Part shown: in pieces, positions 20,909 to 46,502 of the stretch
Layout of the letters: each line of letters starts with the position of its first letter
Numbering within the stretch: the stretch's first letter is position 1
Assembly (NCBI GenBank): GCA_003213015.1
Contig: QCOG01000004.1
Coordinates: forward strand, 13,486 to 77,485
Origin: Pelagibacteraceae bacterium AG-430-F16
Lineage (GTDB): Bacteria > Pseudomonadota > Alphaproteobacteria > Pelagibacterales > Pelagibacteraceae
Reading direction: 5' to 3'
DNA: 64,000 nucleotides
Notes under the pieces: generated by a model
Database searches by the model: none
Told to the model about the DNA's origin: nothing
Seen by the model: the letters and a program-made list of their open reading frames with translations, nothing else
Made by a program: the position numbers and the translations under genes

Positions 20909-21519
20909 TGAAAAAAAAATCATCAATAACTTCAAAATTAAGAAATGCTTTTATAGCTGGTATCGTTGTATTAGTCCCAATTGGTTTTACTTTGTATCTC
21001 ACTTTATTTTTAATTAAGATATCATCAAAATTAATTCCTAATGAAATAAATCCAAATAACTATCTTCCTTTTTCTATACCGGGGCTTGAAATTTTATTAT
21101 CTGTTATTTTTATTACTATTGTCGGAGGTATTTCATTATCATTTTTTGGAAAAAAAATTTTAAATTTAATTAATGATCTTTTTAAAAGAATTCCAATCCT
21201 AAGAACTATTTACTCTGCAATTGGCCAAATGACAGAAAGTTTTACAAGTAAATCGGATAATAAAAAAAGTGTTGTTCTAGTTGAATATCCTAAAAAGGGA
21301 TCATGGGCTGTTGGTTTTGCTACTAAAGAAAATAAAGGTGAGATAAGTAAAAAGACTAATAAAGATTTAATCAATGTATTTGTCCCAACAACACCAAATC
21401 CCACGAGTGGTTTTTTATTAATGTTTCCAAGAGATGAGGTTATTTATCTTGATATGACTTTTGAAGAGGCTTCAAAATTTATTGTATCTGCTGGCACCTC
21501 AGATCCTGCTGACAATTAA
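20908..21519 (+). CDS. DUF502 family membrane protein
   Basis: FIAGIVVLVPIGFT, VLVEYPKKG.W..GF.T, VFVPTTPNPTSGFL. Confidence 0.88.
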   Translation: MKKKSSITSKLRNAFIAGIVVLVPIGFTLYLTLFLIKISSKLIPNEINPNNYLPFSIPGLEILLSVIFITIVGGISLSFFGKKILNLINDLFKRIPILRTIYSAIGQMTESFTSKSDNKKSVVLVEYPKKGSWAVGFATKENKGEISKKTNKDLINVFVPTTPNPTSGFLLMFPRDEVIYLDMTFEEASKFIVSAGTSDPADN

Positions 21520-23556
21520 ACTATATCATTTAGTATATCCGCCCTATCGTAAAGTTTGAGCAAGGATTTAAATTTATTTAAATCTATGTTTTCTCTCTCA
21601 ATTTTTTTAACTTCTTTTTCAGCTAATAAAAAAAGATGTTCATTTAAAACAGGATCTGCAAGTCGAAAACTTTGAACTCCACTTTGTTTAAAACCTAATA
21701 AATCACCGTAACCTCTTAATTTCATATCTTCCTCTGATATTTTAAAACCATCATTATTTTCTTTCAAAATATTTAATCGTTTTCTTGCATTTTTACTTAG
21801 ATTCTTTTTAAACATCAGGATGCAGAATGACTCTTTGTTTCCCCTTCCAACTCTTCCCCTAAGTTGATGAAGTTGAGACAAGCCAAACTTATTTGAATTT
21901 TCTATAATGATCACGTTAGCATTTGGAAAATCAATACCGACCTCTATCACAGTTGTTGAAACTAAAATGTCGAATTTTTTATTTAAAAATTTGTCTAATA
22001 TTTTATTTTTATCTACCTTATCGATCGATCCATGTAAAAGACCAACTTTATCTTTAAAAACTTTTTGAAGATCCTTATGTCTTTGTACAGCTGACTGGTG
22101 ATCGATTTTTTTAGACTCATCTATTAATGGACAAACCCAAAAAATTTGATTACCTTTTTTTATTTGATTTTTTGTAAAATTAATAATCTCATTTAATTTT
22201 GTATCAACTTTGCTGTAAGTTTTAACCGTTTTTCTATTTTTTGGTTTTTTGTTTTATTATAGTCACGTCCATATCTCCAAAAATAGTCATAATCATTGTT
22301 CTAGGTATAGGAGTTGCTGACATTACTAATACATCACAATTTTTGCCGCCTTTGTCAGACAATTTTTTTCTTTGTTTAACACCAAATTTATGTTGTTCAT
22401 CAATAATGACAAGACCGAGTTTTTTATAATTTATTTTTTCTTGAAAAACAGAATGAGTCCCAAATAGTATTTTAATTTCACTTTTTTCTAAATCTTTAAT
22501 TATTTTTTTCCTATCAGAATAGTTGGTTTTAGATGTTAAAAAACCTATTTTGATTTTATTTTTTATTAAAGATTGAGCTAGCTTATAATGTTGATATGCT
22601 AAAATTTCAGTTGGTGCCATAAAGGCAACCTGGTAACCACTATTAACAACATTAAAACAAGAAATTAGTGCTACAATAGTTTTACCACTTCCAACATCGC
22701 CCTGCAAAAGTCTGAACATTTTTTCATCAGATTTCAAATCATTGTTAATTTCATTTAATGCATTTGTTTGATCAGCGGTAAGTTCGTAAGTCAATTCTTT
22801 TTTGATATTGTTTGTAAAATTATCAGCAAATATTTTTTTTTCCTTTTTAAACTTTTTAATAGTTTTTCTTATTTTTGAATTAATCAAAAAAGTAGAGAGA
22901 ATTTCATCGAAAATTAATCTTTCTAAAAAGTTCCCTTTTTTATTAATATTATTGGGATCATGAAGTTCTAATACTGCTTTTTTCCAAGAAATATTATCAA
23001 ATTTTTTCAGAATTTCTTTGTCTAACCATTCATCTAAATTTGGAATGTTTTTTAATACTTCATGGATGATTTTGTTATAAAGTTTATTATTAAGACCTTC
23101 AGTTAAACTATAACTTTTATCAATTATTTTAACAGAATTAGGATCTTCAGATAAGTGGGTGGGGTTTGTTATTTGATATTTCTTATTATAATAACCAATC
23201 TTCCCACTGATAGTTACTTTTGTGTTTAGTGGGAGTATTTTTTTAATATATCCCTCATAACTATTAAAGAAGATGCAATCTAGCTTTCCAGTTTCATCTT
23301 CACACATTACCTTATTTGGTAAGTTTCTAATACGTGGAAAGTTATATTTTTTTACAATAACAGTTACGGTTTGTATTTTTCCAACCTGCAATTCATTAAT
23401 GGGAAAAACATTAGATCTATCAACAAAATCTCTAGGTAAATTCCACAGAAGATCAAATATTGTATTGATATTCTTTTTTCTAAATAATTTTCCTAATTTA
23501 GTTCCTATTCCTTTTATGGTACTTATATCAGATAGCAAATAATCATATGAAGACAT
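21516..23556 (-). CDS. recG: ATP-dependent DNA helicase RecG, split by an apparent +1 frameshift in the T6 run at 22245-22250
   Basis: LQGDVGSGKT, DEQH, MSATPIPRT in the 5' part; removing one base gives KQKPKNRKTVKT...WVCPLI...TTVIEVGIDFPNA...QLRGRVGRG. Confidence 0.93.
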
Positions 23557-38642: not shown

Positions 38643-38717
38643 GGTCCCTTCGTCTATCGGTTAGGACACATGGTTTTCATCCATGAAAGAGGGGTTCGAT
38701 TCCCCTAGGGACCGCCA
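38643..38717 (+). tRNA. tRNA-Glu (TTC)
   Basis: GGTCCCT...AGGGACC-G-CCA; anticodon arm CATGG-TTTTCAT-CCATG. Confidence 0.97.
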
Positions 38718-38719
38718 CA

Positions 38720-39004
38720 ATGAAATATTTTGTATATTTATTAATTTCAAAAAAAAATAGTAAATTTTTTTCTTATGCTGGTATGACTAGAGATCTAAAT
38801 AAAAGGATTGCCCTTCATAATTCATCTAAAGGAGCTAAATATACCAAGGGGAAAAAATGGCAACTAGCTTACAAAAAATCTTACAATTCTAAGTCAAAAG
38901 CCTTAAAAGAGGAATATAGTCTCAAAAAAGACAAAAAAAAAAGGGAAAAAATTAAATTAAGTTTTATTTTAAAAAATGAAAATTTCGATTCTTTTACCGT
39001 ATAA
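38720..39004 (+). CDS. Small GIY-YIG nuclease family protein
   Basis: FVYLL...SYAGMT.DL.KR...HN..KGAKYT...E..LK. Confidence 0.87.
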   Translation: MKYFVYLLISKKNSKFFSYAGMTRDLNKRIALHNSSKGAKYTKGKKWQLAYKKSYNSKSKALKEEYSLKKDKKKREKIKLSFILKNENFDSFTV

Positions 39005-41087
39005 GGAAAACTTTTCACCTTTGTATCCTGGAGCCGTATCTTTATTTATAAATTCCATGAACAAATTAAGCATTTATAAAAATCAAATTACTGTGTACGG
39101 TTCAACGGATTTGAAAGAAAAATTTTCTGAAAATTATATTAATATTAATTTAAAAAAGAGTTTTTTAAAAAGTCAAACGCGTGATTATGTTAATAAATTC
39201 GTTGAATTACACAAAAATCAAAATACAGATATAATTGAAATCCATAATAGACCAAATTATATTGATTTTTTAAAAGCACTTAATTCAAAAAAGGTTTTAT
39301 ATTTTCATAATGACCCTATATCGATGATAGGATCTAAATCACCATTAGAAAGAAAAGAATTAATTAGAAGCTGTACAAAAATTATTTTTAATAGTGAGTG
39401 GTCCAAAAAACAGTTTTTAAAAAAGCTTGATAAATTTTTTCATAAATCCGAAAAGCTTGAGGTAATACATCAATCAATTAATAAAGAGGAAGTTAATATT
39501 AATAAAAAAGAAAAATTAATTACTTTTGTAGGAAAACTAAATTCTGCAAAAGGTTATGATTTATTTGGTAAATCCATTTTAAAAATATTAGATAAACATA
39601 AAGATTGGAAATCTATAGTTATTGGAGATGAACCAAGAGAAAAGTTAATTTTTGATCACAAAAATCTTAAAGTTCTAGGTTTCCAAAATCATACAAAAGT
39701 TTTAAATATTTTTAAGAAAACAAGTATCGCGGTAGCTTGTTCAAGATGGGAAGAGCCTTTTGGTAGAACAAGTTTAGAAGCATCAAGCCGTGGTTGTGCA
39801 GTTATAGTTTCAAATAGAGGTGGTTTACCAGAAACAATTACAAACGGTATTATTGTTAGAAATTTGAATGTTAAAAATTTATACAATTCAATTAATAAAT
39901 TAATTAAGAATAATAAACAAAGAAGAAATTTACAGAAATCATCATTAAAAAACTTTTATTTAACTGACGAGTACATTTGTAAAAAAATTGACAATTATCG
40001 AGAAAAAATTGTAAATAGAAAATTAAATTTAAATGGATCTTTAAGTTCAAATAAACTGAAAATTTTACATGTAACTAATTTTAACGAGAGACATAATGGA
40101 AGATTATTTTACAATACAGGAAAAAGGATTAATAACGGACTTATAAGACTAAATCATAGTGTTTTGGAATTCAGTGACAGAGATATAGTAAGTTATTATA
40201 GAAGTTTAAATGACATCAATGGCTCGAAAAGACTAAATAAAAAGTTAATTGAGGTAATAAGTAACTATGTTCCAGATATAATTATCCTAGGTCATGCTGA
40301 TTTAATTAAAAAAGAAACTTTAAATTTCATAAAAAAAAATTATCCTAATATTAAAATGTGCCAGTGGTTTTTAGATAGAATGGACACGCAATGGTTAAGT
40401 AATAAAAAAAGATTTTTAGATAAAATTGATATGATGGATGCAAGTTTTTGTACGACAGAACCTAAATCACTCAATATACCACCTAAGTATGAGGTTTTTT
40501 ATATACCAAATCCTGTCGATGAGTCTTTTGAGAAATTAGAGAATTATAAAAACAGAAATTTTAATAATGACGTTTTTTTTGCGATGAGTCATGGCGTTCA
40601 TAGAGGTGTACTTAAAAAAGGTAAATTTGATCAAAGGGAAAATTTTATAAATAAATTAATTTCTGTAACTCCAAATATAAGATTTGATTTATATGGAATG
40701 AATGGAGTTCAACCAGTTTGGGCAGATAATTATTTATATGCAATATCTCAATCAAAAATAGGTTTAAACCTTAGCCAAGGAAAACCAGCACAGTTTTATT
40801 CAAGTGATAGATTTGCTCAACTAATTGGGAACGGGTTGTTAGTAATGGTGGATGAAAAAACGAAAATTGGTAACTTTTTTAAAAATGATGAAATTGTTCT
40901 TTATAAAAACGTAAGTGATTTATCGTCAAAAATAATAAAGTACAGTTATGATAATAAATTAAGATGCAAAATAGCAAAAAAAGGTAGAGATAAATACTTC
41001 AAATACTTTAATTCTACAATAGTAGCTGATTTTATAATAAACAAAACCATCGGAACAAAGAGAAGATTTTTTTGGGAAAATATCTAA
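38976..41087 (+). CDS. Two-domain glycosyltransferase (GT4-like plus a second GT-B/CgeB-like domain)
   Basis: EEPFGRTSLEA...GG..E in the first half; WFLD...SDRF..LIGNG in the second. Confidence 0.8.
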   Translation: MKISILLPYKENFSPLYPGAVSLFINSMNKLSIYKNQITVYGSTDLKEKFSENYININLKKSFLKSQTRDYVNKFVELHKNQNTDIIEIHNRPNYIDFLKALNSKKVLYFHNDPISMIGSKSPLERKELIRSCTKIIFNSEWSKKQFLKKLDKFFHKSEKLEVIHQSINKEEVNINKKEKLITFVGKLNSAKGYDLFGKSILKILDKHKDWKSIVIGDEPREKLIFDHKNLKVLGFQNHTKVLNIFKKTSIAVACSRWEEPFGRTSLEASSRGCAVIVSNRGGLPETITNGIIVRNLNVKNLYNSINKLIKNNKQRRNLQKSSLKNFYLTDEYICKKIDNYREKIVNRKLNLNGSLSSNKLKILHVTNFNERHNGRLFYNTGKRINNGLIRLNHSVLEFSDRDIVSYYRSLNDINGSKRLNKKLIEVISNYVPDIIILGHADLIKKETLNFIKKNYPNIKMCQWFLDRMDTQWLSNKKRFLDKIDMMDASFCTTEPKSLNIPPKYEVFYIPNPVDESFEKLENYKNRNFNNDVFFAMSHGVHRGVLKKGKFDQRENFINKLISVTPNIRFDLYGMNGVQPVWADNYLYAISQSKIGLNLSQGKPAQFYSSDRFAQLIGNGLLVMVDEKTKIGNFFKNDEIVLYKNVSDLSSKIIKYSYDNKLRCKIAKKGRDKYFKYFNSTIVADFIINKTIGTKRRFFWENI

Positions 41088-41957
41088 ATGTTTTCGATAA
41101 TTATTCCTACATTTAATAATTTAGATTATCTAAAACTATGTATTAAAAGTATTCGACAAAACTCCAAATTTAATCATCAAATTATTCCGCATGTAAACAT
41201 TGGTGAAGATGGAACTTGCAATTTTTTAAGAAATGAAAATATTGATTTTACATTTACTAATTACAATTCTGGAATTTGTGAGGGAACGAACATAGCATCC
41301 AAAAAAGCGAGATTTAAATATATATTATATTCCCATGACGATTTTTATTTTTGTCCAGATTGGGATGTAGTTTTAAAAAATGATGTTGATTCTATTGGCC
41401 ACAATAACTTTTATTTATCTGGAGTTATGATGAACAACGGACCAATCAAGTTCGATGCCGGGACAGATATTAAAAACTTTGATGAAAATAAAGTTTTAAA
41501 TGAATACCAAAATTATAATCATTATGATTTTCAGGGATCGACATGGGCACCGCATCTTTTGCATAGGGACTTATGGGAAAAGGTAGGGGGGTTTAGTGAG
41601 GAATTCTTTCCTGGAACTGGTTCAGATCCAGATTTAAATATGAAGTTATGGGAAGAAGGGGTAAGAGTTTTTAAAGGATTAAATAATTGTAAGGTTTATC
41701 ATTTTGGTTCAATAGTCACGCGAAAATATAAAAATCATCCAACAATTATTACAGAGTCAGGCAGCAAGGGTGGAAAAATTTTTCTTTTAAAATGGGGTAT
41801 AACAATTAAATTTTTTAAAAAGTTTTATTTAAGATCGGACCAAAAATATGACGGACCTCTAAATAAACCTGATAATAATTTGAACTTTTTTATTAAACTT
41901 ATGTTATGTAAATTAAACTATATGTATCTTAAATTAATTAATATTTTTAAAAAATGA
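41088..41957 (+). CDS. Glycosyltransferase family 2
   Basis: FSIIIPTFNN, HDD, GGFSEEF..G..D.DL. Confidence 0.85.
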   Translation: MFSIIIPTFNNLDYLKLCIKSIRQNSKFNHQIIPHVNIGEDGTCNFLRNENIDFTFTNYNSGICEGTNIASKKARFKYILYSHDDFYFCPDWDVVLKNDVDSIGHNNFYLSGVMMNNGPIKFDAGTDIKNFDENKVLNEYQNYNHYDFQGSTWAPHLLHRDLWEKVGGFSEEFFPGTGSDPDLNMKLWEEGVRVFKGLNNCKVYHFGSIVTRKYKNHPTIITESGSKGGKIFLLKWGITIKFFKKFYLRSDQKYDGPLNKPDNNLNFFIKLMLCKLNYMYLKLINIFKK

Positions 41958-42763
41958 GCAATCTATTTATCTACTGCTTAACATCAAAAAAATACAATCT
42001 TTTTAAATATTTACCATCAAATATAATTCCTCTAGGTCTCGGGGATAAAGATTATCCTAAAGATTTTTTAAATGAAAAATTAGGCATAAATATTACAAAA
42101 CATAATAAATATCTTGCTGAAATGACTGGAATATATTGGGTTTATAAAAACCAAATAAACAAGTTTAAAAAAGATGATTGGATTGGTTTTTGTCATTATA
42201 GAAGGTTTTGGCTTAATGATTTCTATGAACAAAATCACAAAATAAAATCATCCTTGCACTCAAAATTACTCATCCATAATGAAAAATTTAAAGAGGTAGA
42301 TGTTATACTTACCCAACCAACAAGACTTAAGAGAGAAACAATCGTAGATCATTTCATCAATAATCATGGTGACAAAATGATTTTTGAAGCAATAAATATT
42401 TTAGACGAACAAAACGCAAAAGATTTTAAAGATTATCTTAATAATAGGGAATTTAGTTGTTGTAATATGTTTATCACAAAGCCAAAAATTTTTATAGATT
42501 ATTGTGAATTTGTTTTTCCATATTTACTTAAGATACTAAAATATTGTGATGATAATAATCTATGTATTGGTAAAAATACTAAGTTACCAGCTTATTTTAT
42601 TGAGAGATTCACATCTTTTTGGTTCCACAAAAATACCAACGTTAGATATTTGTCATACGCTCAATTAAATAATTTTTTTACATCTAATGTTTTGAATAAA
42701 TTTATAAATACATTTAAGATACCAGGAACTTTTATGTTTTATCCAACAGTATTAGATATATAG
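41954..42763 (+). CDS. DUF4422 domain protein (candidate GT111 galactofuranosyltransferase)
   Basis: N.YLAEMTGIYW, IGFCHYRRF, NMFI.K...F..YC..VFP.L, ERF. Confidence 0.75.
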   Translation: MSNLFIYCLTSKKYNLFKYLPSNIIPLGLGDKDYPKDFLNEKLGINITKHNKYLAEMTGIYWVYKNQINKFKKDDWIGFCHYRRFWLNDFYEQNHKIKSSLHSKLLIHNEKFKEVDVILTQPTRLKRETIVDHFINNHGDKMIFEAINILDEQNAKDFKDYLNNREFSCCNMFITKPKIFIDYCEFVFPYLLKILKYCDDNNLCIGKNTKLPAYFIERFTSFWFHKNTNVRYLSYAQLNNFFTSNVLNKFINTFKIPGTFMFYPTVLDI

Positions 42764-42770
42764 TGTAAAA

Positions 42771-43898
42771 ATGATTGAATCAGATGTGATTATTGTAGGA
42801 GGTGGGCCAGTTGGGTGCGTTTTGGCTAATAAGCTGTCGAATGAACTTAATTTAAAATGTTTGATCATTGAAAAAAGACACCATATTGCCGGAAATTGTT
42901 ATGATGAATATAACAAAAAAGGATTATTATATCACAAATATGGTCCTCATTATTTAAGATTCAAAAATCGAAAGACTCTAAATTATTTATCCAAATTTAC
43001 AAAATGGATACCTGGAGAGTATATAGTCAAATCGTATGTAAATAAAAAATTATACCCCATACCAATAAACCTAGAAACATTAGAAATGTTTTTTAAAACG
43101 AAATTCAATTCTAAAAAAGACGTTGAAGAATTTTTAGATAAGAAAAGGATAAAACTTAAAAAGATTAGAAATGCAGAAGATTTTATTCTATCAAAGTTAG
43201 GTAAAGAAATTTATGAGAATTTTTATAAAAACTATACGATTAAACAATGGGGCATACATCCTAGAAATCTATCTAAAACAATAACGGGAAGACTTCCTAT
43301 TAGAATAAATCGTAATCCCTACTATGTTAAGGAAAAGTTGAGATTAATGCCCAAAAAAGGTTTTACTGAAATGTTTAAAAAGATGATTAATAACAAAAAT
43401 ATTACAGTTAAATTAAATACCGATTTTAATAAAATAAAAAAAGATTTACGATTTAAACATTTCCTTGTTTATACCGGAGAACCAGATAGGTATTTTAATT
43501 ATAAATATGGAAAGTTAAACTGGAGATCTTTAGTTTTTAAATTTAAGAACCATAATAAGAAATTTTTACAAAAATGTGTTCAGTATAATTATCCCAACGA
43601 TCATAAATACACCAGAACTGTTGAAATAAAACATGTGACCAAGCAAAAAAGCAACTATACTGTGATCTCGAAGGAATACCCAACCAACAAAGGTGATCCT
43701 TATTACCCCATAATAAATGATAAGAACATAAGATTATTCAAAAAATATGAAAATTTGATGAATAAAGAGGCTAAGAATAATATTTTTTTTGAGGGTAGGT
43801 TAGCTAGATACACATATTATAATACTGACGAAGTGATCGAAAGAGCTCTAGATCTATATTTAAATTTAAAAAAAAAATTCAAAAAGAATAAAAATTAA
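42771..43898 (+). CDS. glf: UDP-galactopyranose mutase
   Basis: VGGG..G, HIAGNCYD, HKYGPH, KQWG, YTR.VE.KH, PYYP, GRLA.Y.YY. Confidence 0.93.
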   Translation: MIESDVIIVGGGPVGCVLANKLSNELNLKCLIIEKRHHIAGNCYDEYNKKGLLYHKYGPHYLRFKNRKTLNYLSKFTKWIPGEYIVKSYVNKKLYPIPINLETLEMFFKTKFNSKKDVEEFLDKKRIKLKKIRNAEDFILSKLGKEIYENFYKNYTIKQWGIHPRNLSKTITGRLPIRINRNPYYVKEKLRLMPKKGFTEMFKKMINNKNITVKLNTDFNKIKKDLRFKHFLVYTGEPDRYFNYKYGKLNWRSLVFKFKNHNKKFLQKCVQYNYPNDHKYTRTVEIKHVTKQKSNYTVISKEYPTNKGDPYYPIINDKNIRLFKKYENLMNKEAKNNIFFEGRLARYTYYNTDEVIERALDLYLNLKKKFKKNKN

Positions 43899-44761
43899 AA
43901 ATCTTCAATACGTTTGAAAGATCTGTTATTCTTTATTGAGTTTATTAAACCATTTAATCTAATTTGATATTTTGATTTATTTTTCTTATTACCAGAAATA
44001 GTATTAAGACAAATCCTAAAAATTATTCTTAATAAAGCTGGCAAAAACAGGATTAGAGCAGTTAATTTGCCGTATTTTTTTCTATAATAATAAAACTTCG
44101 ACCAAATAAAATGCCATGTATATAAATTTTTAAGCTTGTTAACATCTTCTTTATTTTTAATTTCAACAGATGTACCGATATCATGATATACTTTTTGTGA
44201 GTTTACTTGGTAAATCTTAAAGTTATTTTTATTTGATCTAAAACAATAATCAGTTTCTTCAAAATAAAGGAAGAAATTTTCATCAAATCCTCTATTTTTA
44301 TCAAATACCTCAGAACAAAAAAACATTGCGGATCCACTTATCGATTCTATTTGACCGTATTTTTCATTAATATTTGATTGTTTATGTGATTTTTCACTTA
44401 CATTTTCAAATCTAGGTCCTAATGCCCCAAAATTATTATTTAATTCTTTGGCTGATTCAAAAAAAACATTTATTAATTTATCGTCAATTTTCTGCATATC
44501 TGGATTCAAAACAAAAAAGTATTTTGTAGTTACATATGTTCTTGCTAAATTTATCGCACTTCCATAACCATTATTTTCGGAAAATATTAGTTCAACGTTT
44601 TTTTTAAAATTTGAAAGTTCTTTTTCAATTGATTTGTCTTTAGAATTTTCAACAATAATTATTTTAAGTTCATTTGATATTTTTTTAATTAATTTTATTA
44701 CTTTTTTTTTACTCTTATGAGATATGATAACAATTGTGACTTCTTTTTTTGAATTAATCAT
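43895..44761 (-). CDS. Glycosyltransferase family 2 (WbbL/GT2-like)
   Basis: NNGYGSAIN, LNPD, GFDENFFLYFEETD.C. Confidence 0.87.
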   Translation of the reverse strand: MINSKKEVTIVIISHKSKKKVIKLIKKISNELKIIIVENSKDKSIEKELSNFKKNVELIFSENNGYGSAINLARTYVTTKYFFVLNPDMQKIDDKLINVFFESAKELNNNFGALGPRFENVSEKSHKQSNINEKYGQIESISGSAMFFCSEVFDKNRGFDENFFLYFEETDYCFRSNKNNFKIYQVNSQKVYHDIGTSVEIKNKEDVNKLKNLYTWHFIWSKFYYYRKKYGKLTALILFLPALLRIIFRICLNTISGNKKNKSKYQIRLNGLINSIKNNRSFKRIEDF

Positions 44762-45711
44762 ATTTTAATCTTATTCAATGCATTATTTTTAAATATATTT
44801 GCTTCTCTTATATATCTTCTAACCATTTGAGTTGTTTTATGACCTGTCATAGCCATAATACTTCTTTCATCTGCACCAGACTCAGCCGCCACTGTTGCAA
44901 ATCCAGCCCTCAAGCTATGACCTGCAAAGTTTTTATTTTCAATACCTGCCAAATTCAAGTATTTCTTCATTAATAAAACGACTGACTGATCTGTTAATCT
45001 TTTATCCGTTAGTATTGAACCCTTGGAAAATCTTCTGAAAATAGGTCCTGATTTGACTTTTGATATTTCTATCCATTTCTTTAAACTAGATACAGGGCAA
45101 TATATTTCGTTAGTGAAGTAGGGCAGGCCTTTAATCATTCCTTCCCCTAATTGATCTGTTTTAGATTTTTTGATATTGATTTTAAGACCTTCAGGTACAA
45201 ATTCTAAATCCTCATGGTCAATTGAAATCAGCTCAGTTCTTCTAAACCCACCTCCAAATCCCACTAATATGATTGATCTATCTCTTAACTTTTTAATTTC
45301 TTCGACTTTTTGTTTATCTATTACATTAACTATAGATTTTAAATGATTGATTAATATAGGTTTTTTTCCTTTCTGAAAACTTCCTTTAACCCTTTTTATA
45401 CCTAACAGATTTTCAGTGATAATTGGATGTTTTGTATCTAAATAATGACCTTTGAGCTTATGAACCATGCTTATTGATACTAATCTTCTTCTAATCGTGC
45501 TTATTTTAAAATTTTTAGATAGATGAGTAAGATATATAGAAACTATTTTAGGTTCAGTTGGTAAAGAATTAAGTCCATGCTTAGTACAAAAAGCTCCAAA
45601 ATCTTTAAAGTCTGATTTATATGCTCTTAAAGTGTTATTTGCTTTTGAACTTTTTAAGTTATTTAAAGTTGCTTCATGAAGCAATTTGAGATCTGTTGTT
45701 AATTTATTCAT
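44758..45711 (-). CDS. Cre-like tyrosine recombinase, 317 aa, catalytic residues intact
   Basis: NTLRAYKSD, STIRRRL..I, RD.SII..GF.GGFRRTEL, SKTDQ.G.G, GHSLRAGFAT, MTGH, MVRRY; ATG at 45711 preferred over the TTG at 45729. Confidence 0.92.
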   Translation of the reverse strand: MNKLTTDLKLLHEATLNNLKSSKANNTLRAYKSDFKDFGAFCTKHGLNSLPTEPKIVSIYLTHLSKNFKISTIRRRLVSISMVHKLKGHYLDTKHPIITENLLGIKRVKGSFQKGKKPILINHLKSIVNVIDKQKVEEIKKLRDRSIILVGFGGGFRRTELISIDHEDLEFVPEGLKINIKKSKTDQLGEGMIKGLPYFTNEIYCPVSSLKKWIEISKVKSGPIFRRFSKGSILTDKRLTDQSVVLLMKKYLNLAGIENKNFAGHSLRAGFATVAAESGADERSIMAMTGHKTTQMVRRYIREANIFKNNALNKIKI

Positions 45712-45712
45712 A

Positions 45713-45747
45713 ATTACTATTGATAACAATTAATTATCATTAGTAAT
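45713..45747. repeat. 14-7-14 bp inverted repeat ATTACTATTGATAA-CAATTAA-TTATCATTAGTAAT; candidate recombinase site (dif/lox-like) or operator
   Basis: 13 of 14 arm positions pair; begins 2 bp upstream of the recombinase ATG. Confidence 0.85.
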
Positions 45748-45771
45748 AATATAAGTCATTTAAGATGTCAA
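45743..45771 (-). promoter_or_regulatory. Putative promoter of the recombinase, overlapping the palindrome
   Basis: TTGACA (45771-45766)-N17-TATTAC. Confidence 0.5.
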
Positions 45772-45793
45772 GTAAATAAGTTAATTTGTTTTT

Positions 45794-45958
45794 ATGATAA
45801 AATATATAATTTTAGCTTTGGCTGTTATCGGAATAATTTTTTTTGTGCTGTTTAAATTTGAAAAATTGAATAAGCCTGAGAAAAAGAAATCTATATACAT
45901 TTTAATAACAGTATTAATTTTAGTCTTAGCTGGAATTGTCTCATTATTGTACTTTTAG
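45794..45958 (+). CDS. 54-aa protein with two TM helices
   Basis: Manual translation MIKYIILALAVIGIIFFVLFKFEKLNKPEKKKSIYILITVLILVLAGIVSLLYF; below the ORF-track cutoff. Confidence 0.72.
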   Translation: MIKYIILALAVIGIIFFVLFKFEKLNKPEKKKSIYILITVLILVLAGIVSLLYF

Positions 45959-46004
45959 AGTTATTAACGTTATTCACACCTTTCCTGTTTAATCGCTTAA
46001 AAAG

Positions 46005-46013
46005 TGATACATT
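46005..46013 (+). promoter_or_regulatory. Extended -10 promoter TG-A-TACATT
   Basis: TGnTAnnnT consensus; predicted start 46020-46021 coincides with the first helix of the RNA. Confidence 0.6.
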
Positions 46014-46020
46014 CAACCTA

Positions 46021-46228
46021 AGTAGTTTGTTATTATCAAATGAATTAAGGGGCAACCCTTAACTGGCCGACTGGGGAAAGGCCGAGAGGACCAAGCCCAG
46101 GGGGCAGAAAGTCTTACGGAGTAGCGCTAAAATCGTAGGGCGGAAGGCATGGCGGTAGCGCATACAACGACGTGCCAAAACTACTGTTCTTTGCACCGTA
46201 AAAAGTGCAAGGAAACAGGGGTTTTTTT
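46021..46228 (+). ncRNA. Structured GC-rich RNA / riboswitch-like leader of the MGMT gene
   Basis: 58% GC over 46061-46180 (70/120, counted); closing helix, four internal helices with GCAA and GAGA tetraloops, loop-loop complementarity and a terminator. Confidence 0.8.
46184..46228 (+). terminator. Intrinsic terminator ending the structured RNA
   Basis: CTGTTCTTTGCAC-CGTAAAAA-GTGCAAGGAAACAG followed by GGG and T7. Confidence 0.65.
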
Positions 46229-46232
46229 CCAT

Positions 46233-46502
46233 ATGAGAGGCACTAAATTTCAATTACAAGTTTGGAATTATCTTAAAAAGATACCTAGGGGATCTGTAAA
46301 AACATATAAACAAGTAGCTATAGCAATAAATAAACCAAAATCAGCTCGTGCGGTTGCTAATGCCTGTGCTAAGAACCCTTATGCTCCAAATATACCATGT
46401 CATAGGGTTATTAGGTCTGATGGAGGCCTTGGAGGTTATTCTGGAAGAGGTGGGGTTGATCAAAAATTGAAATTGCTGAGGTCAGAAAAGGTTGATATTT
46501 AG
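46233..46502 (+). CDS. ogt: Minimal O6-methylguanine-DNA methyltransferase (89 aa)
   Basis: T.FQ..VW..L..IP.G...TY, ARAVANAC.KNP, PCHRV; the ORF-track start at 46149 lies inside the RNA. Confidence 0.9.
   Translation: MRGTKFQLQVWNYLKKIPRGSVKTYKQVAIAINKPKSARAVANACAKNPYAPNIPCHRVIRSDGGLGGYSGRGGVDQKLKLLRSEKVDI

What the first reader, a model, noticed from the sequence alone, without database searches (positions are those of the whole stretch)
44758..45771. Cre-like recombinase with a lox/dif-like palindrome at an apparent replication terminus: candidate single-recombinase chromosome-dimer-resolution system
Seen: an intact tyrosine recombinase (R-K-HxxR-H-Y) with Cre-family motifs (SKTDQ.G.G, GHSLRAG). 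Starting 2 bp upstream of its ATG is ATTACTATTGATAA-CAATTAA-TTATCATTAGTAAT, with 13 of 14 arm bases pairing around an asymmetric 7-bp spacer. Its inner GATAA-N7-TTATC recalls the CATAA-N6-TTATG core of canonical dif. No att repeats, excisionase or phage genes flank it, and it sits where gene orientation converges. Established: XerS/difSL (streptococci) uses one recombinase with the site directly upstream of its own gene; XerH/difH (epsilonproteobacteria) is also a one-recombinase system; loxP is 13-8-13. Inference: a domesticated Cre-like enzyme may resolve chromosome dimers here in place of XerC/XerD; symmetric arms fit a homotetramer. I do not know of this having been described for SAR11.
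Basis: partly seen in the sequence, partly recalled or inferred. Interest (0 to 1): 0.9.

Follow-up and report, generated by a model that had tools for sequence, protein, structure and literature searches.

The report
SAR11 Cre/lox-like chromosome dimer resolver
The ocean's most abundant bacterium, reported to lack the usual system for separating joined sister chromosomes, carries a strongly conserved Cre-like enzyme with its own lox-like DNA site near the replication terminus; this pair probably does that job, and some SAR11 phages carry copies of the site.

Summary
A 317-aa tyrosine recombinase (44758-45711, minus strand) has a 35-bp palindrome (45713-45747) one base upstream of its ATG. The palindrome is not statistically unusual within this AT-rich window. 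Across 80 SAR11 species genomes, however, it is 98.6% conserved, including the 7-bp spacer. Synonymous sites of the gene are only 63% identical and the flank 60%.

Homologues at 45-69% identity keep the same 14-7-14 layout, with both arms changed in parallel. Relatives at 31-45% carry similar sites upstream, with arms resembling loxP and the validated SloxP site. The predicted fold matches Cre best (TM 0.76-0.80).

The HTCC1062 orthologue is SAR11_1019. It lies about 12 kb from the published cumulative GC-skew inflection (995,771). The same study reported no dif and no Xer homologue in that genome, although RecA is present.

My best reading is a Cre/lox-type single-recombinase chromosome-dimer-resolution module that probably also represses its own promoter (confidence about 0.6). 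Recombination itself is untested.

One unexpected result: pelagiphage-like contigs carry sites with the host's arms but a different spacer, next to the terminase gene, and no recombinase homologue was found on the held parts.

The parts
44758..45711 (-). Cre-type tyrosine recombinase gene (317 aa), orthologue of HTCC1062 SAR11_1019 'xerD'
   Evidence: Translation. Pfam Phage_integrase 5.3e-20 and SAM-like N domain. Catalytic R157-K184-H265-R268-H291-Y300 invariant. AlphaFold model pLDDT 90, best PDB fold matches Cre/Tre with TM 0.76-0.80. 87-100% identical in the top 120 database hits, and relatives in 557 GTDB species genomes. Synteny with metY and hppA matches SAR11_1019/1030/1040.
45713..45747 (.). 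lox-like recombination site, 14-7-14 (or 13-9-13): arms 45713-45726 and 45734-45747, asymmetric spacer 45727-45733
   Evidence: Sequence. 98.6% mean column conservation in 79 genomes, against 60-63% at neutral-like sites. Same layout with co-changed arms in 45-69% homologues. Related sites lie upstream of 31-45% relatives. Arms resemble SloxM1 and loxP (own knowledge).
45743..45771 (-). Promoter of the recombinase: -35 TTGACA (45771-45766) and a -10-like hexamer (TATTAC 45748-45743 or TATATT 45753-45748) that abuts or overlaps the distal arm
   Evidence: TTGACA is 97-100% conserved, 18 nt from the site. Consensus scan. Metatranscriptome contigs cover the gene. SAR11_1019 mRNA was measured in culture.
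43895..46502 (.). Point where gene orientation converges: + genes to the left, - genes to the right
   Evidence: 77% of coding bases are on + to the left and 88% on - to the right. The best breakpoint is 43.5-45 kb. Cumulative GC skew peaks at 42-46 kb. HTCC1062 skew inflection at 995,771.
38643..44761 (.). Variable glycosyltransferase cluster between tRNA-Glu (38643-38717) and the 3' end of the recombinase. It is neighbouring context and probably not part of the module.
   Evidence: Pfam GT2, GT4, DUF4422 and UDP-galactopyranose mutase. glf is present in 3 of 68 related loci and DUF4422 in 4 of 64, while the palindrome side is syntenic in nearly all.

Best explanation
This is a Cre/lox-type site-specific recombination module fixed in the SAR11 chromosome near the replication terminus. 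It most likely serves as the cell's only chromosome-dimer-resolution system.

Proposed mechanism, all inferred:
1. One recombinase monomer binds each arm of the 35-bp site.
2. After an odd number of RecA-dependent sister exchanges, the dimeric chromosome carries two directly repeated copies of the site.
3. Four monomers synapse the two sites. Y300 cleaves on either side of the asymmetric spacer TTAATTG, and two ordered pairs of strand exchanges pass through a Holliday junction, yielding two monomers.
4. The asymmetric spacer gives the site its direction.

Because the distal arm overlaps the -10 region and the expected transcription start, bound recombinase probably also represses its own gene.

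What is shown: the anatomy, the conservation, the Cre-like fold, the lox-like site family, transcription, and the location near the published GC-skew inflection. What is inferred: binding, cleavage, dimer resolution, autoregulation, and any dependence on FtsK.
For: - Site constraint: the 35-bp site is 98.6% conserved across 79 SAR11 genomes, with the spacer invariant in 77. Third codon positions of the adjacent gene are 63% identical and the upstream flank 60%.
- Protein constraint: first and second codon positions are 93% identical against 63% at third positions. This indicates purifying selection rather than a recent sweep.
- Architecture in distant homologues: a 45%-identical homologue has a perfect ATTACTTCCGATAA-CATACAA-TTATCGGAAGTAAT one base before its ATG. 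Homologues of 67-69% have the spacer TTAATGG.
- Site type across the family: of 84 loci with 31-45% relatives, 12 carry GATAA-N7-TTATC palindromes. In 10 of them the palindrome starts 36-384 bp upstream of the gene match.
- Similarity to a validated site: the arms match the type of SloxM1, CTCGTGTCCGATA-ACTGTAAT-TATCGGACACGAG.
- Fold: the top 30 PDB matches are Cre or Tre at TM 0.76-0.80. IntI scores 0.65, XerH about 0.6 and XerA 0.47.
- Copy number: one site and one tyrosine recombinase per locus in the window and 80 loci.
- Location: gene orientation converges at the locus. The orthologue SAR11_1019 sits at about 984 kb by tag arithmetic, against the published GC-skew inflection at 995,771.
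- Need for such a system: the literature reports no dif and no Xer homologue in HTCC1062, but RecA is present.
- Expression: SAR11_1019 mRNA rises about 8-fold in stationary phase, together with recA.
- Phage mimics: phages carry copies of the host arms. That makes sense for a recombination site but not for a mere operator.
- Established knowledge: Cre/loxP placed at the dif position can replace XerCD/dif in E. coli (Leslie & Sherratt 1995), and P1 Cre resolves plasmid-prophage dimers.
Against: - No biochemical or genetic evidence exists for binding, cleavage or dimer resolution.
- The local GC-skew flip is largely explained by gene orientation. Coding-strand GC3 skew is lower, not higher, in genes presumed to be on the leading strand (0.03 against 0.16, p=0.04, n=53 and 13).
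- The coordinate of SAR11_1019 was estimated from its tag number, not read from the record.
- Copy number could be checked only within +/-10 kb.
- The site overlaps the promoter and 5' UTR, so part of its conservation may be regulatory.
- Most members of this recombinase family sit in phage-like or plasmid-like contexts.
- FtsK and polar orienting motifs were not examined.
Confidence: 0.6

Rival explanations
1. The palindrome is only an autoregulatory operator. The recombinase binds it to repress its own promoter, and its true recombination substrate, if any, lies elsewhere.
For: The distal arm overlaps the -10 hexamer and the expected transcription start, and the conserved TTGACA lies 18 nt away. 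Expression is regulated, about 8-fold up in stationary phase.
Against: The 7-bp spacer is as invariant as the arms (77 of 79), which a dimer-binding operator does not require. Validated Cre-type recombinases have their recombination site next to the gene. Phages copy the arms, which would bring no obvious gain if the site only regulated a host gene. No other candidate site was found within 64 kb.
Confidence: 0.12
2. The module is mainly a docking or processing system for foreign DNA, either exploited by it or directed against it. The chromosomal site would be a landing pad, or the enzyme would act on lox-like sites of pelagiphages (cyclisation, multimer resolution or integration). Chromosome dimer resolution would be absent or secondary.
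For: 47 IMG/VR contigs and 21 metagenome contigs carry the same arms. At least two pelagiphage lineages place the site just upstream of terL and show no recombinase homologue on the held parts. No cultured pelagiphage encodes a homologue.
Against: Phage spacers (TCATAAA and others) never equal the host spacer (TTAATTG or TTAATGG), so host-phage exchange should be inefficient. No insertion is present at the host site in 77 genomes, where the distance to ogt is 530-1442 bp. A gene kept only for phages to use would not be expected to show such strong purifying selection in the host. The location near the terminus is left unexplained.
Confidence: 0.15
3. It is the integrase of a genomic island, a relic or still active, and is responsible for the variable glycosyltransferase cluster between tRNA-Glu and its 3' end.
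For: The gene abuts a cluster whose content differs between genomes and which starts at a tRNA gene. Family members occur in mobile contexts.
Against: There is no second site or direct repeat at the tRNA-Glu end. The site lies on the conserved side, away from the island. The gene is present and 87-94% identical in the sampled genomes whatever the island content. There is no excisionase or phage gene.
Confidence: 0.08

Closest known systems
Cre/loxP of phage P1 and validated Cre-type pairs (SCre/SloxP, VCre/VloxP, Dre/rox)
   Same: The size is the same (317 aa against 343 for Cre). The two-domain fold matches, with TM 0.76-0.80 to Cre-DNA complexes. The catalytic residues are of the same type. 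The site is made of two 13-14-bp inverted arms around a short asymmetric spacer and lies next to the gene. The arms (ATTACTAATGATA, or ATTACTTCCGATA in a relative) resemble loxP ATAACTTCGTATA (own knowledge) and SloxM1 ...GTCCGATA. In P1 the natural role includes resolving replicon dimers.
   Different: Identity to Cre is only 17-19%. The fifth catalytic position is His291, where Cre has Trp. The spacer is one base longer (13-9-13 against 13-8-13). The module is a conserved chromosomal core gene of a free-living bacterium rather than part of a phage or plasmid. Activity is untested.
Single-recombinase dif/Xer systems: XerS/difSL, XerH/difH, XerL/dif (Legionellales), XerA/dif (archaea)
   Same: One recombinase acts with one conserved AT-rich palindromic site near the terminus. 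The site is adjacent to the gene, as for XerS and XerH and for the plasmid copy in Coxiella. It occurs in a lineage reported to lack XerCD and dif, as Legionella was before XerL. Mobile elements carry mimics of the site, as LME-1 does for XerL.
   Different: It is not an orthologue of these enzymes. NCBIfam scores are 44-74 bits against cut-offs of 220-335, and fold similarity to XerH and XerA is lower than to Cre. The site is 35 bp with 14-bp arms and shows no dif consensus. The phage mimics have a different spacer, and no integrated form was seen.
XerC/XerD-dif
   Same: The presumed task is the same, as is the chromosomal position. The inner ATAA...TTAT of the arms loosely recalls the dif core.
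   Different: One enzyme acts instead of two. The arms are symmetric. There is no dif-like 28-mer; the literature reports 'absence of dif-related sequence' in HTCC1062. XerD and XerC model scores are far below their cut-offs.

Membership tests
Cre-type tyrosine recombinase with lox-type site | Tyrosine-recombinase catalytic set R-K-H-R-(H/W)-Y intact | tested here: met
   R157, K184, H265, R268, H291 and Y300 are invariant among 25 sequences. Pfam Phage_integrase 5.3e-20.
Cre-type tyrosine recombinase with lox-type site | Whole-protein fold closest to Cre, both domains | tested here: met
   AlphaFold model pLDDT 90.2. PDB ranks 1-30 are all Cre or Tre, TM 0.72-0.80, E down to 3e-14. IntI, XerH and XerA score lower.
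Cre-type tyrosine recombinase with lox-type site | Detectable sequence homology to Cre over the full length | tested here: met
   phmmer against the PDB finds Cre at E=2e-5 over residues 26-304 of 317. The match is weak, and XerA (2e-8) and XerD (1e-6) score better over the catalytic domain only.
Cre-type tyrosine recombinase with lox-type site | Target of two ~13-bp inverted repeats around a short asymmetric spacer, close to the gene | tested here: met
   A 14-7-14 (or 13-9-13) site lies 1-3 nt from the ATG. The same site type lies upstream of distant relatives. Arms are like SloxM1. The spacer is one base longer than the canonical 8.
Cre-type tyrosine recombinase with lox-type site | Recombines two sites without accessory proteins | not testable with these tools
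   Needs an excision assay in E. coli or in vitro.
dif/Xer chromosome dimer resolution (functional class) | Site at the replication terminus | tested here: inconclusive
   For: orientation converges at the site, and SAR11_1019 (about 984 kb by tag arithmetic) is near the published skew inflection at 995,771. Against: the GC3-skew control shows no independent replication signal. No complete genome could be read directly.
dif/Xer chromosome dimer resolution (functional class) | Single, conserved copy per chromosome | tested here: inconclusive
   There is one copy per 20-kb locus in 80 genomes and one in the 64-kb window. Whole genomes were not scanned.
dif/Xer chromosome dimer resolution (functional class) | Recombinase orthologous to XerC, XerD, XerS, XerH or XerA | tested here: not met
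   NCBIfam scores against cut-offs: XerD 73.9/329.6, XerC 62.5/335, XerA 64.5/220, XerS 43.9/267. Published BLAST scores in HTCC1062 are 42-47 bits.
dif/Xer chromosome dimer resolution (functional class) | 28-31-bp dif consensus | tested here: not met
   The site is 35 bp with 14-bp arms. Only ATAA...TTAT is shared with the dif core. The literature found no dif-related sequence in HTCC1062.
dif/Xer chromosome dimer resolution (functional class) | Resolves chromosome dimers; control by FtsK | not testable with these tools
   Needs genetics or heterologous complementation. FtsK in SAR11 was not examined.
Phage or genomic-island integrase; integron integrase | att repeats bounding an element, excisionase or phage genes, or IntI signature with a cassette array | tested here: not met
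   No direct repeats or second site. Neighbours are glycosyltransferases and housekeeping genes. The integron-integrase model scores 29 against a cut-off of 265. The side bearing the site is syntenic, with no cassettes.

The most novel reading that the evidence does not exclude
SAR11, the most abundant bacterial lineage in the sea and published as lacking any dif/Xer system, resolves chromosome dimers with a domesticated Cre/lox module. This would be a natural counterpart of the classic experiment in which Cre/loxP replaced XerCD/dif. In addition, several pelagiphage lineages carry lox mimics with the host's arms but their own spacer, next to their packaging genes. They would use the host enzyme on their own DNA (cyclisation or multimer resolution) without integrating.
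Probability: 0.3. Interest if true: 0.9.

Novelty: new variant of a known kind. Interest (0 to 1): 0.75.

Why it matters
It would close a published gap. SAR11 has RecA and is known for frequent recombination (own knowledge), so it should need dimer resolution. Yet it was listed with endosymbionts as lacking the machinery.

It would add a fifth, Cre-type lineage to the single-recombinase dimer-resolution systems. It would show that Cre/lox-like modules can be taken over as core chromosome-maintenance genes.

It would give a precise marker of the terminus for SAR11 population genomics and for growth-rate estimates from coverage.

The phage-borne mimics point to an unrecognised use of a host recombinase by abundant marine phages.

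The enzyme and its 35-bp site, together with the natural spacer variants, are also a candidate orthogonal recombination tool.

Tried and rejected
- Chance test of the palindrome within the window. It is not significant, so the argument rests on conservation.
- Locating the locus in a complete genome by exact-protein look-up of ribosomal protein S9 and by listing cluster members. No complete genome was reached. The position was instead inferred from the literature.
- Separating replication skew from transcription skew using GC3 skew. The result was inconclusive and slightly contrary.
- Second copies or att repeats. Only weak chance-like matches with four mismatches were found.
- Insertions at the site (IMEX-like). 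None in 77 genomes.
- Cultured pelagiphages HTVC027P and HTVC023P. No site within 6 kb of terL. HTVC106P has only a related palindrome.
- A host clade whose site carries the phage spacer TCATAAA. None was found. None of the 21 metagenome hits has an adjacent recombinase, and those with recognisable genes are phage-like.
- HVR2 integrase SAR11_0551 as the orthologue. Rejected, because synteny points to SAR11_1019.
- RNA hairpin reading. Variation in the distal arm is not compensated in the proximal arm, so pairing is not what is being conserved within SAR11.
Full report
**What is there.** The ORF at 44758-45711 on the minus strand encodes a 317-aa protein. It has a Phage_integrase catalytic domain (E=5.3e-20) and an N-terminal SAM-like domain. 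One base upstream of its ATG lies ATTACTATTGATAA-CAATTAA-TTATCATTAGTAAT (45713-45747). Thirteen of 14 arm positions pair around an asymmetric 7-bp spacer. A TTGACA box lies 18 nt further upstream, at 45771-45766 on the minus strand. A -10-like hexamer therefore abuts or overlaps the distal arm.

Taken alone, such a palindrome is not unusual in this 26-30% G+C window. One was seen, against 1.7 +/- 1.7 expected in simulations.

**Conservation.**
- The protein is abundant and very conserved. The top 120 database hits are 87-100% identical and 316-318 aa long. Those that carry a name are labelled Pelagibacter.
- In a one-genome-per-species collection, 557 stretches encode a relative. The 80 best loci were fetched.
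- Upstream of every one lies the same 35-bp site. Mean column conservation is 98.6%, 33 of 35 columns are at least 95% conserved, and the spacer TTAATTG is present in 77 of 79.
- By contrast, the 40 nt upstream are 60% identical to the window. Third codon positions of the recombinase are 63% identical, and first plus second positions 93%.
- The protein and the whole site, spacer included, are therefore under strong purifying selection. The pattern does not fit a recent sweep.
- Only positions 8-9 of the promoter-distal arm vary, and these changes are not compensated in the other arm. This argues against a conserved hairpin within SAR11.
- The 80 loci were chosen by recombinase similarity. Comparisons with neighbouring genes are therefore biased. 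The comparison of the site with synonymous sites of the same gene is not.

**The site travels with the family.**
- A 69%-identical homologue has ATTACTAACGATAA-TTAATGG-TTATCAATAGTAAT.
- A 67% homologue has TATACTTCCGATAA-TTAATGG-TTATCGGAAAAATA.
- A 45% homologue has a perfect ATTACTTCCGATAA-CATACAA-TTATCGGAAGTAAT one base before its ATG. Its 90%-identity cluster includes a protein from a MarineAlpha5 alphaproteobacterial MAG. Both arms have changed in parallel (AAT/ATT to TCC/GGA).
- The family is large: 2,666 cluster representatives score E<=1e-30.
- 421 IMG/VR contigs encode relatives of 31-41% identity.
- Among 84 such distant loci, 12 carry an exact GATAA-N7-TTATC palindrome. In 10 of them it starts 36-384 bp upstream of the gene match, with arms such as ATAACTTCCGATAA or CTGGTGTCCGATAA.
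- These arms are of the same type as the experimentally validated SloxM1 site of SCre, CTCGTGTCCGATA-ACTGTAAT-TATCGGACACGAG. They also resemble loxP, ATAACTTCGTATA (own knowledge).
- Read as 13-9-13, the SAR11 site differs from the canonical 13-8-13 by one spacer base.

**Cre-like or Xer-like?**
- By sequence the protein is only a generic tyrosine recombinase. XerD, XerC, XerA and XerS models score 44-74 bits against cut-offs of 220-335.
- Against PDB sequences, XerA (2e-8) and XerD (1e-6) match the catalytic domain. Cre matches the full length at 2e-5.
- By fold the answer is clear. A confident model (pLDDT 90.2) has Cre or its evolved derivative Tre as its top 30 PDB matches (TM 0.72-0.80). 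The integron integrase (0.65), XerH (about 0.6) and XerA (0.47) follow.
- R157, K184, H265, R268, H291 and Y300 are invariant.
- 'Cre-type recombinase with a lox-type site' is therefore supported. 'Member of a Xer orthologous group' is not.

**Genomic context.**
- On the palindrome side the order is conserved at fixed offsets in nearly all loci. It runs: small ORF, IMES-2 RNA, ogt, EamA transporter, auxin-efflux-carrier-type transporter, homoserine dehydrogenase, rpsI and rplM.
- On the 3' side lies a glycosyltransferase cluster that starts after tRNA-Glu. Its content differs between genomes: glf is in 3 of 68 loci and DUF4422 in 4 of 64.
- There is no second site, no direct repeat and no phage gene.
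- Only one tyrosine recombinase is detectable per locus.
- The distance from the recombinase start to ogt is 530-1442 bp in 77 genomes, so nothing is integrated at the site.

**Is it at the terminus?**
- In the window, 77% of coding bases left of the site are on the + strand and 88% right of it on the - strand. The best breakpoint is 43.5-45 kb. Cumulative GC skew peaks at 42-46 kb.
- A control weakens the skew argument. Coding-strand GC3 skew is lower in genes presumed to be on the leading strand (0.03 against 0.16, p=0.04, n=53 and 13). The flip is therefore mostly a gene-orientation effect.
- Independent support comes from the literature. The window's order of recombinase, metY and hppA matches HTCC1062 SAR11_1019 ('xerD, integrase/recombinase'), SAR11_1030 and SAR11_1040.
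- Table S1 of Carnoy & Roten (2009) places the cumulative GC-skew inflection of HTCC1062 at 995,771 of 1,308,759 bp. It records 'absence of dif-related sequence'.
- With 1,354 CDS tags (966.6 bp per tag), SAR11_1019 falls at about 984 kb and SAR11_1030 at about 996 kb. The locus is therefore roughly 12 kb, under 1% of the chromosome, from the inflection. That lies inside the range of dif-to-skew distances in the same table. This step is inference: the coordinate was not read from the record.

**Does SAR11 need such a system, and does it lack the usual one?**
- The same study lists HTCC1062 best BLAST scores of 42-47 bits to XerD, XerC, XerS and XerH, scored as absent. RecA scores 459 bits and is scored as present.
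- No paper in the searched library discusses SAR11_1019 in this connection.
- The history of Legionella is a precedent. It was also listed as lacking dif/Xer until the single recombinase XerL and a perfectly palindromic dif were found through a mobile element carrying a mimic of the site.
- It is established that Cre/loxP inserted at the dif position can replace XerCD/dif in E. coli, and that P1 Cre resolves plasmid-prophage dimers (own knowledge).
- The gene is expressed. SAR11_1019 mRNA rises 7.6-8.5-fold in stationary phase, as does recA. Marine metatranscriptome contigs cover the gene.

**Phage copies of the site.**
- A pattern search found 47 IMG/VR contigs with ATTACT-N3-GATAA-N7-TTATC-N3-AGTAAT. 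My rough estimate is that fewer than one would be expected by chance.
- Fourteen low-G+C contigs share the order 120-aa ORF, site, about 200 bp, terL. In the contig examined a portal gene follows. Their terL is 72% identical to that of Pelagibacter phage HTVC027P.
- A second group has the order terS, site, terL, portal, with terL 89% identical to HTVC106P.
- Their arms equal the SAR11 host arms. In L093 both arms are identical to the window's. Their spacers differ, though: TCATAAA, TCATAAG, CGCACTA and others.
- No recombinase homologue is present on the held parts of these contigs, nor in any cultured pelagiphage among 50,697 phage records.
- A metagenome scan for the TCATAAA form gave 21 contigs. 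None has an adjacent recombinase, and those with recognisable genes are phage-like.
- HTVC027P and HTVC023P lack the site within 6 kb of terL. HTVC106P has a related palindrome, TTTCCGATAACGATTAATATCGGAA, between its terS-like gene and terL.
- Five contigs of 37-41% G+C have their own distant 318-aa integrase, and its last codons and stop (YYFR*) lie in the arm.
- I read the pelagiphage sites as mimics that recruit the host enzyme. Their position next to the packaging genes recalls loxP and pac in P1, where Cre cyclises terminally redundant DNA (own knowledge). This is speculative. It does favour a true recombination site over a mere operator.

**Verdict.** The most likely explanation is a Cre/lox-type single-recombinase chromosome-dimer-resolution module near the SAR11 terminus, probably autoregulated through overlap of the site with its promoter (confidence about 0.6). 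The rivals are an operator only (0.12), a system mainly concerned with foreign or phage DNA (0.15), and an island integrase (0.08). It works like the single-recombinase Xer systems but is not an orthologue of them. In fold and site type it belongs with Cre-type recombinases. It is a new variant of a known kind. The decisive evidence would be excision and complementation assays, plus a census of complete genomes.

Noticed in passing
window 46038-46178 (+): An IMES-2 RNA motif (Rfam RF02035, 158.8 bits, full length) lies between the lox-like site and ogt. It is extremely abundant in a marine metatranscriptome: contig word depth is about 60,000, against about 100-2,600 over the recombinase. It was found at the same place in 3 of 6 SAR11 loci tested (L002, L015, L017) and not in L031, L046 or L052.
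   Followed up: partly
L090-L136 (IMG/VR) and L221-L241 (metagenomes); e.g. L093 9169-9203: Pelagiphage-like contigs (HTVC027P-like and HTVC106P-like) carry lox-like sites with the SAR11 host's arms but other spacers (TCATAAA is the most common). The sites lie just upstream of terL, and no recombinase homologue is present on the held parts.
   Followed up: partly
L220 1510-1534 (Pelagibacter phage HTVC106P, MN698244.1, between gp68 and terL): The cultured pelagiphage HTVC106P has a related palindrome, TTTCCGATAACGATTAATATCGGAA, at the same position as the sites in its uncultured relatives. It does not match the strict pattern.
   Followed up: partly
L098 10100-11077; also L121, L129, L130, L136: Phage contigs of 37-41% G+C carry a distant 318-aa tyrosine integrase. 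Its C-terminal codons and stop (YYFR*) are encoded by the arm ATTACTTCCGATAA of a lox-like site. The same arm is found in the chromosomal site of L081, whose recombinase clusters with one from a MarineAlpha5 MAG.
   Followed up: partly
window 38720-44761: A small glycosyltransferase island lies between tRNA-Glu and the recombinase, and it differs from strain to strain (GT4, GT2, DUF4422, UDP-galactopyranose mutase). It is separate from the main SAR11 hypervariable region HVR2. The last glycosyltransferase gene overlaps the recombinase stop codon by 4 bp, which suggests co-transcription.
   Followed up: partly
window 21516-23556 (-): The RecG-like ORF is only 440 aa (wedge and DEAD domains). 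A 144-aa ORF follows on the same strand. This may be a split or frameshifted recG, or an assembly error.
   Followed up: no
L015 3361-3427, L046 3465-3531, L052 3463-3529: SAM-V riboswitch matches lie about 6.5 kb upstream of the recombinase start, near the expected position of metY, in three related genomes. The window itself gave no SAM-V match at gathering threshold.
   Followed up: no
L083 and L085 (a 41%-identical relative): A family member sits next to the BREX genes brxA and brxB. L083 also carries a second integrase. In L083 a CGATAA-N7-TTATCG core starts about 125 bp upstream of the gene. The family also occurs in defence-island or mobile contexts.
   Followed up: no
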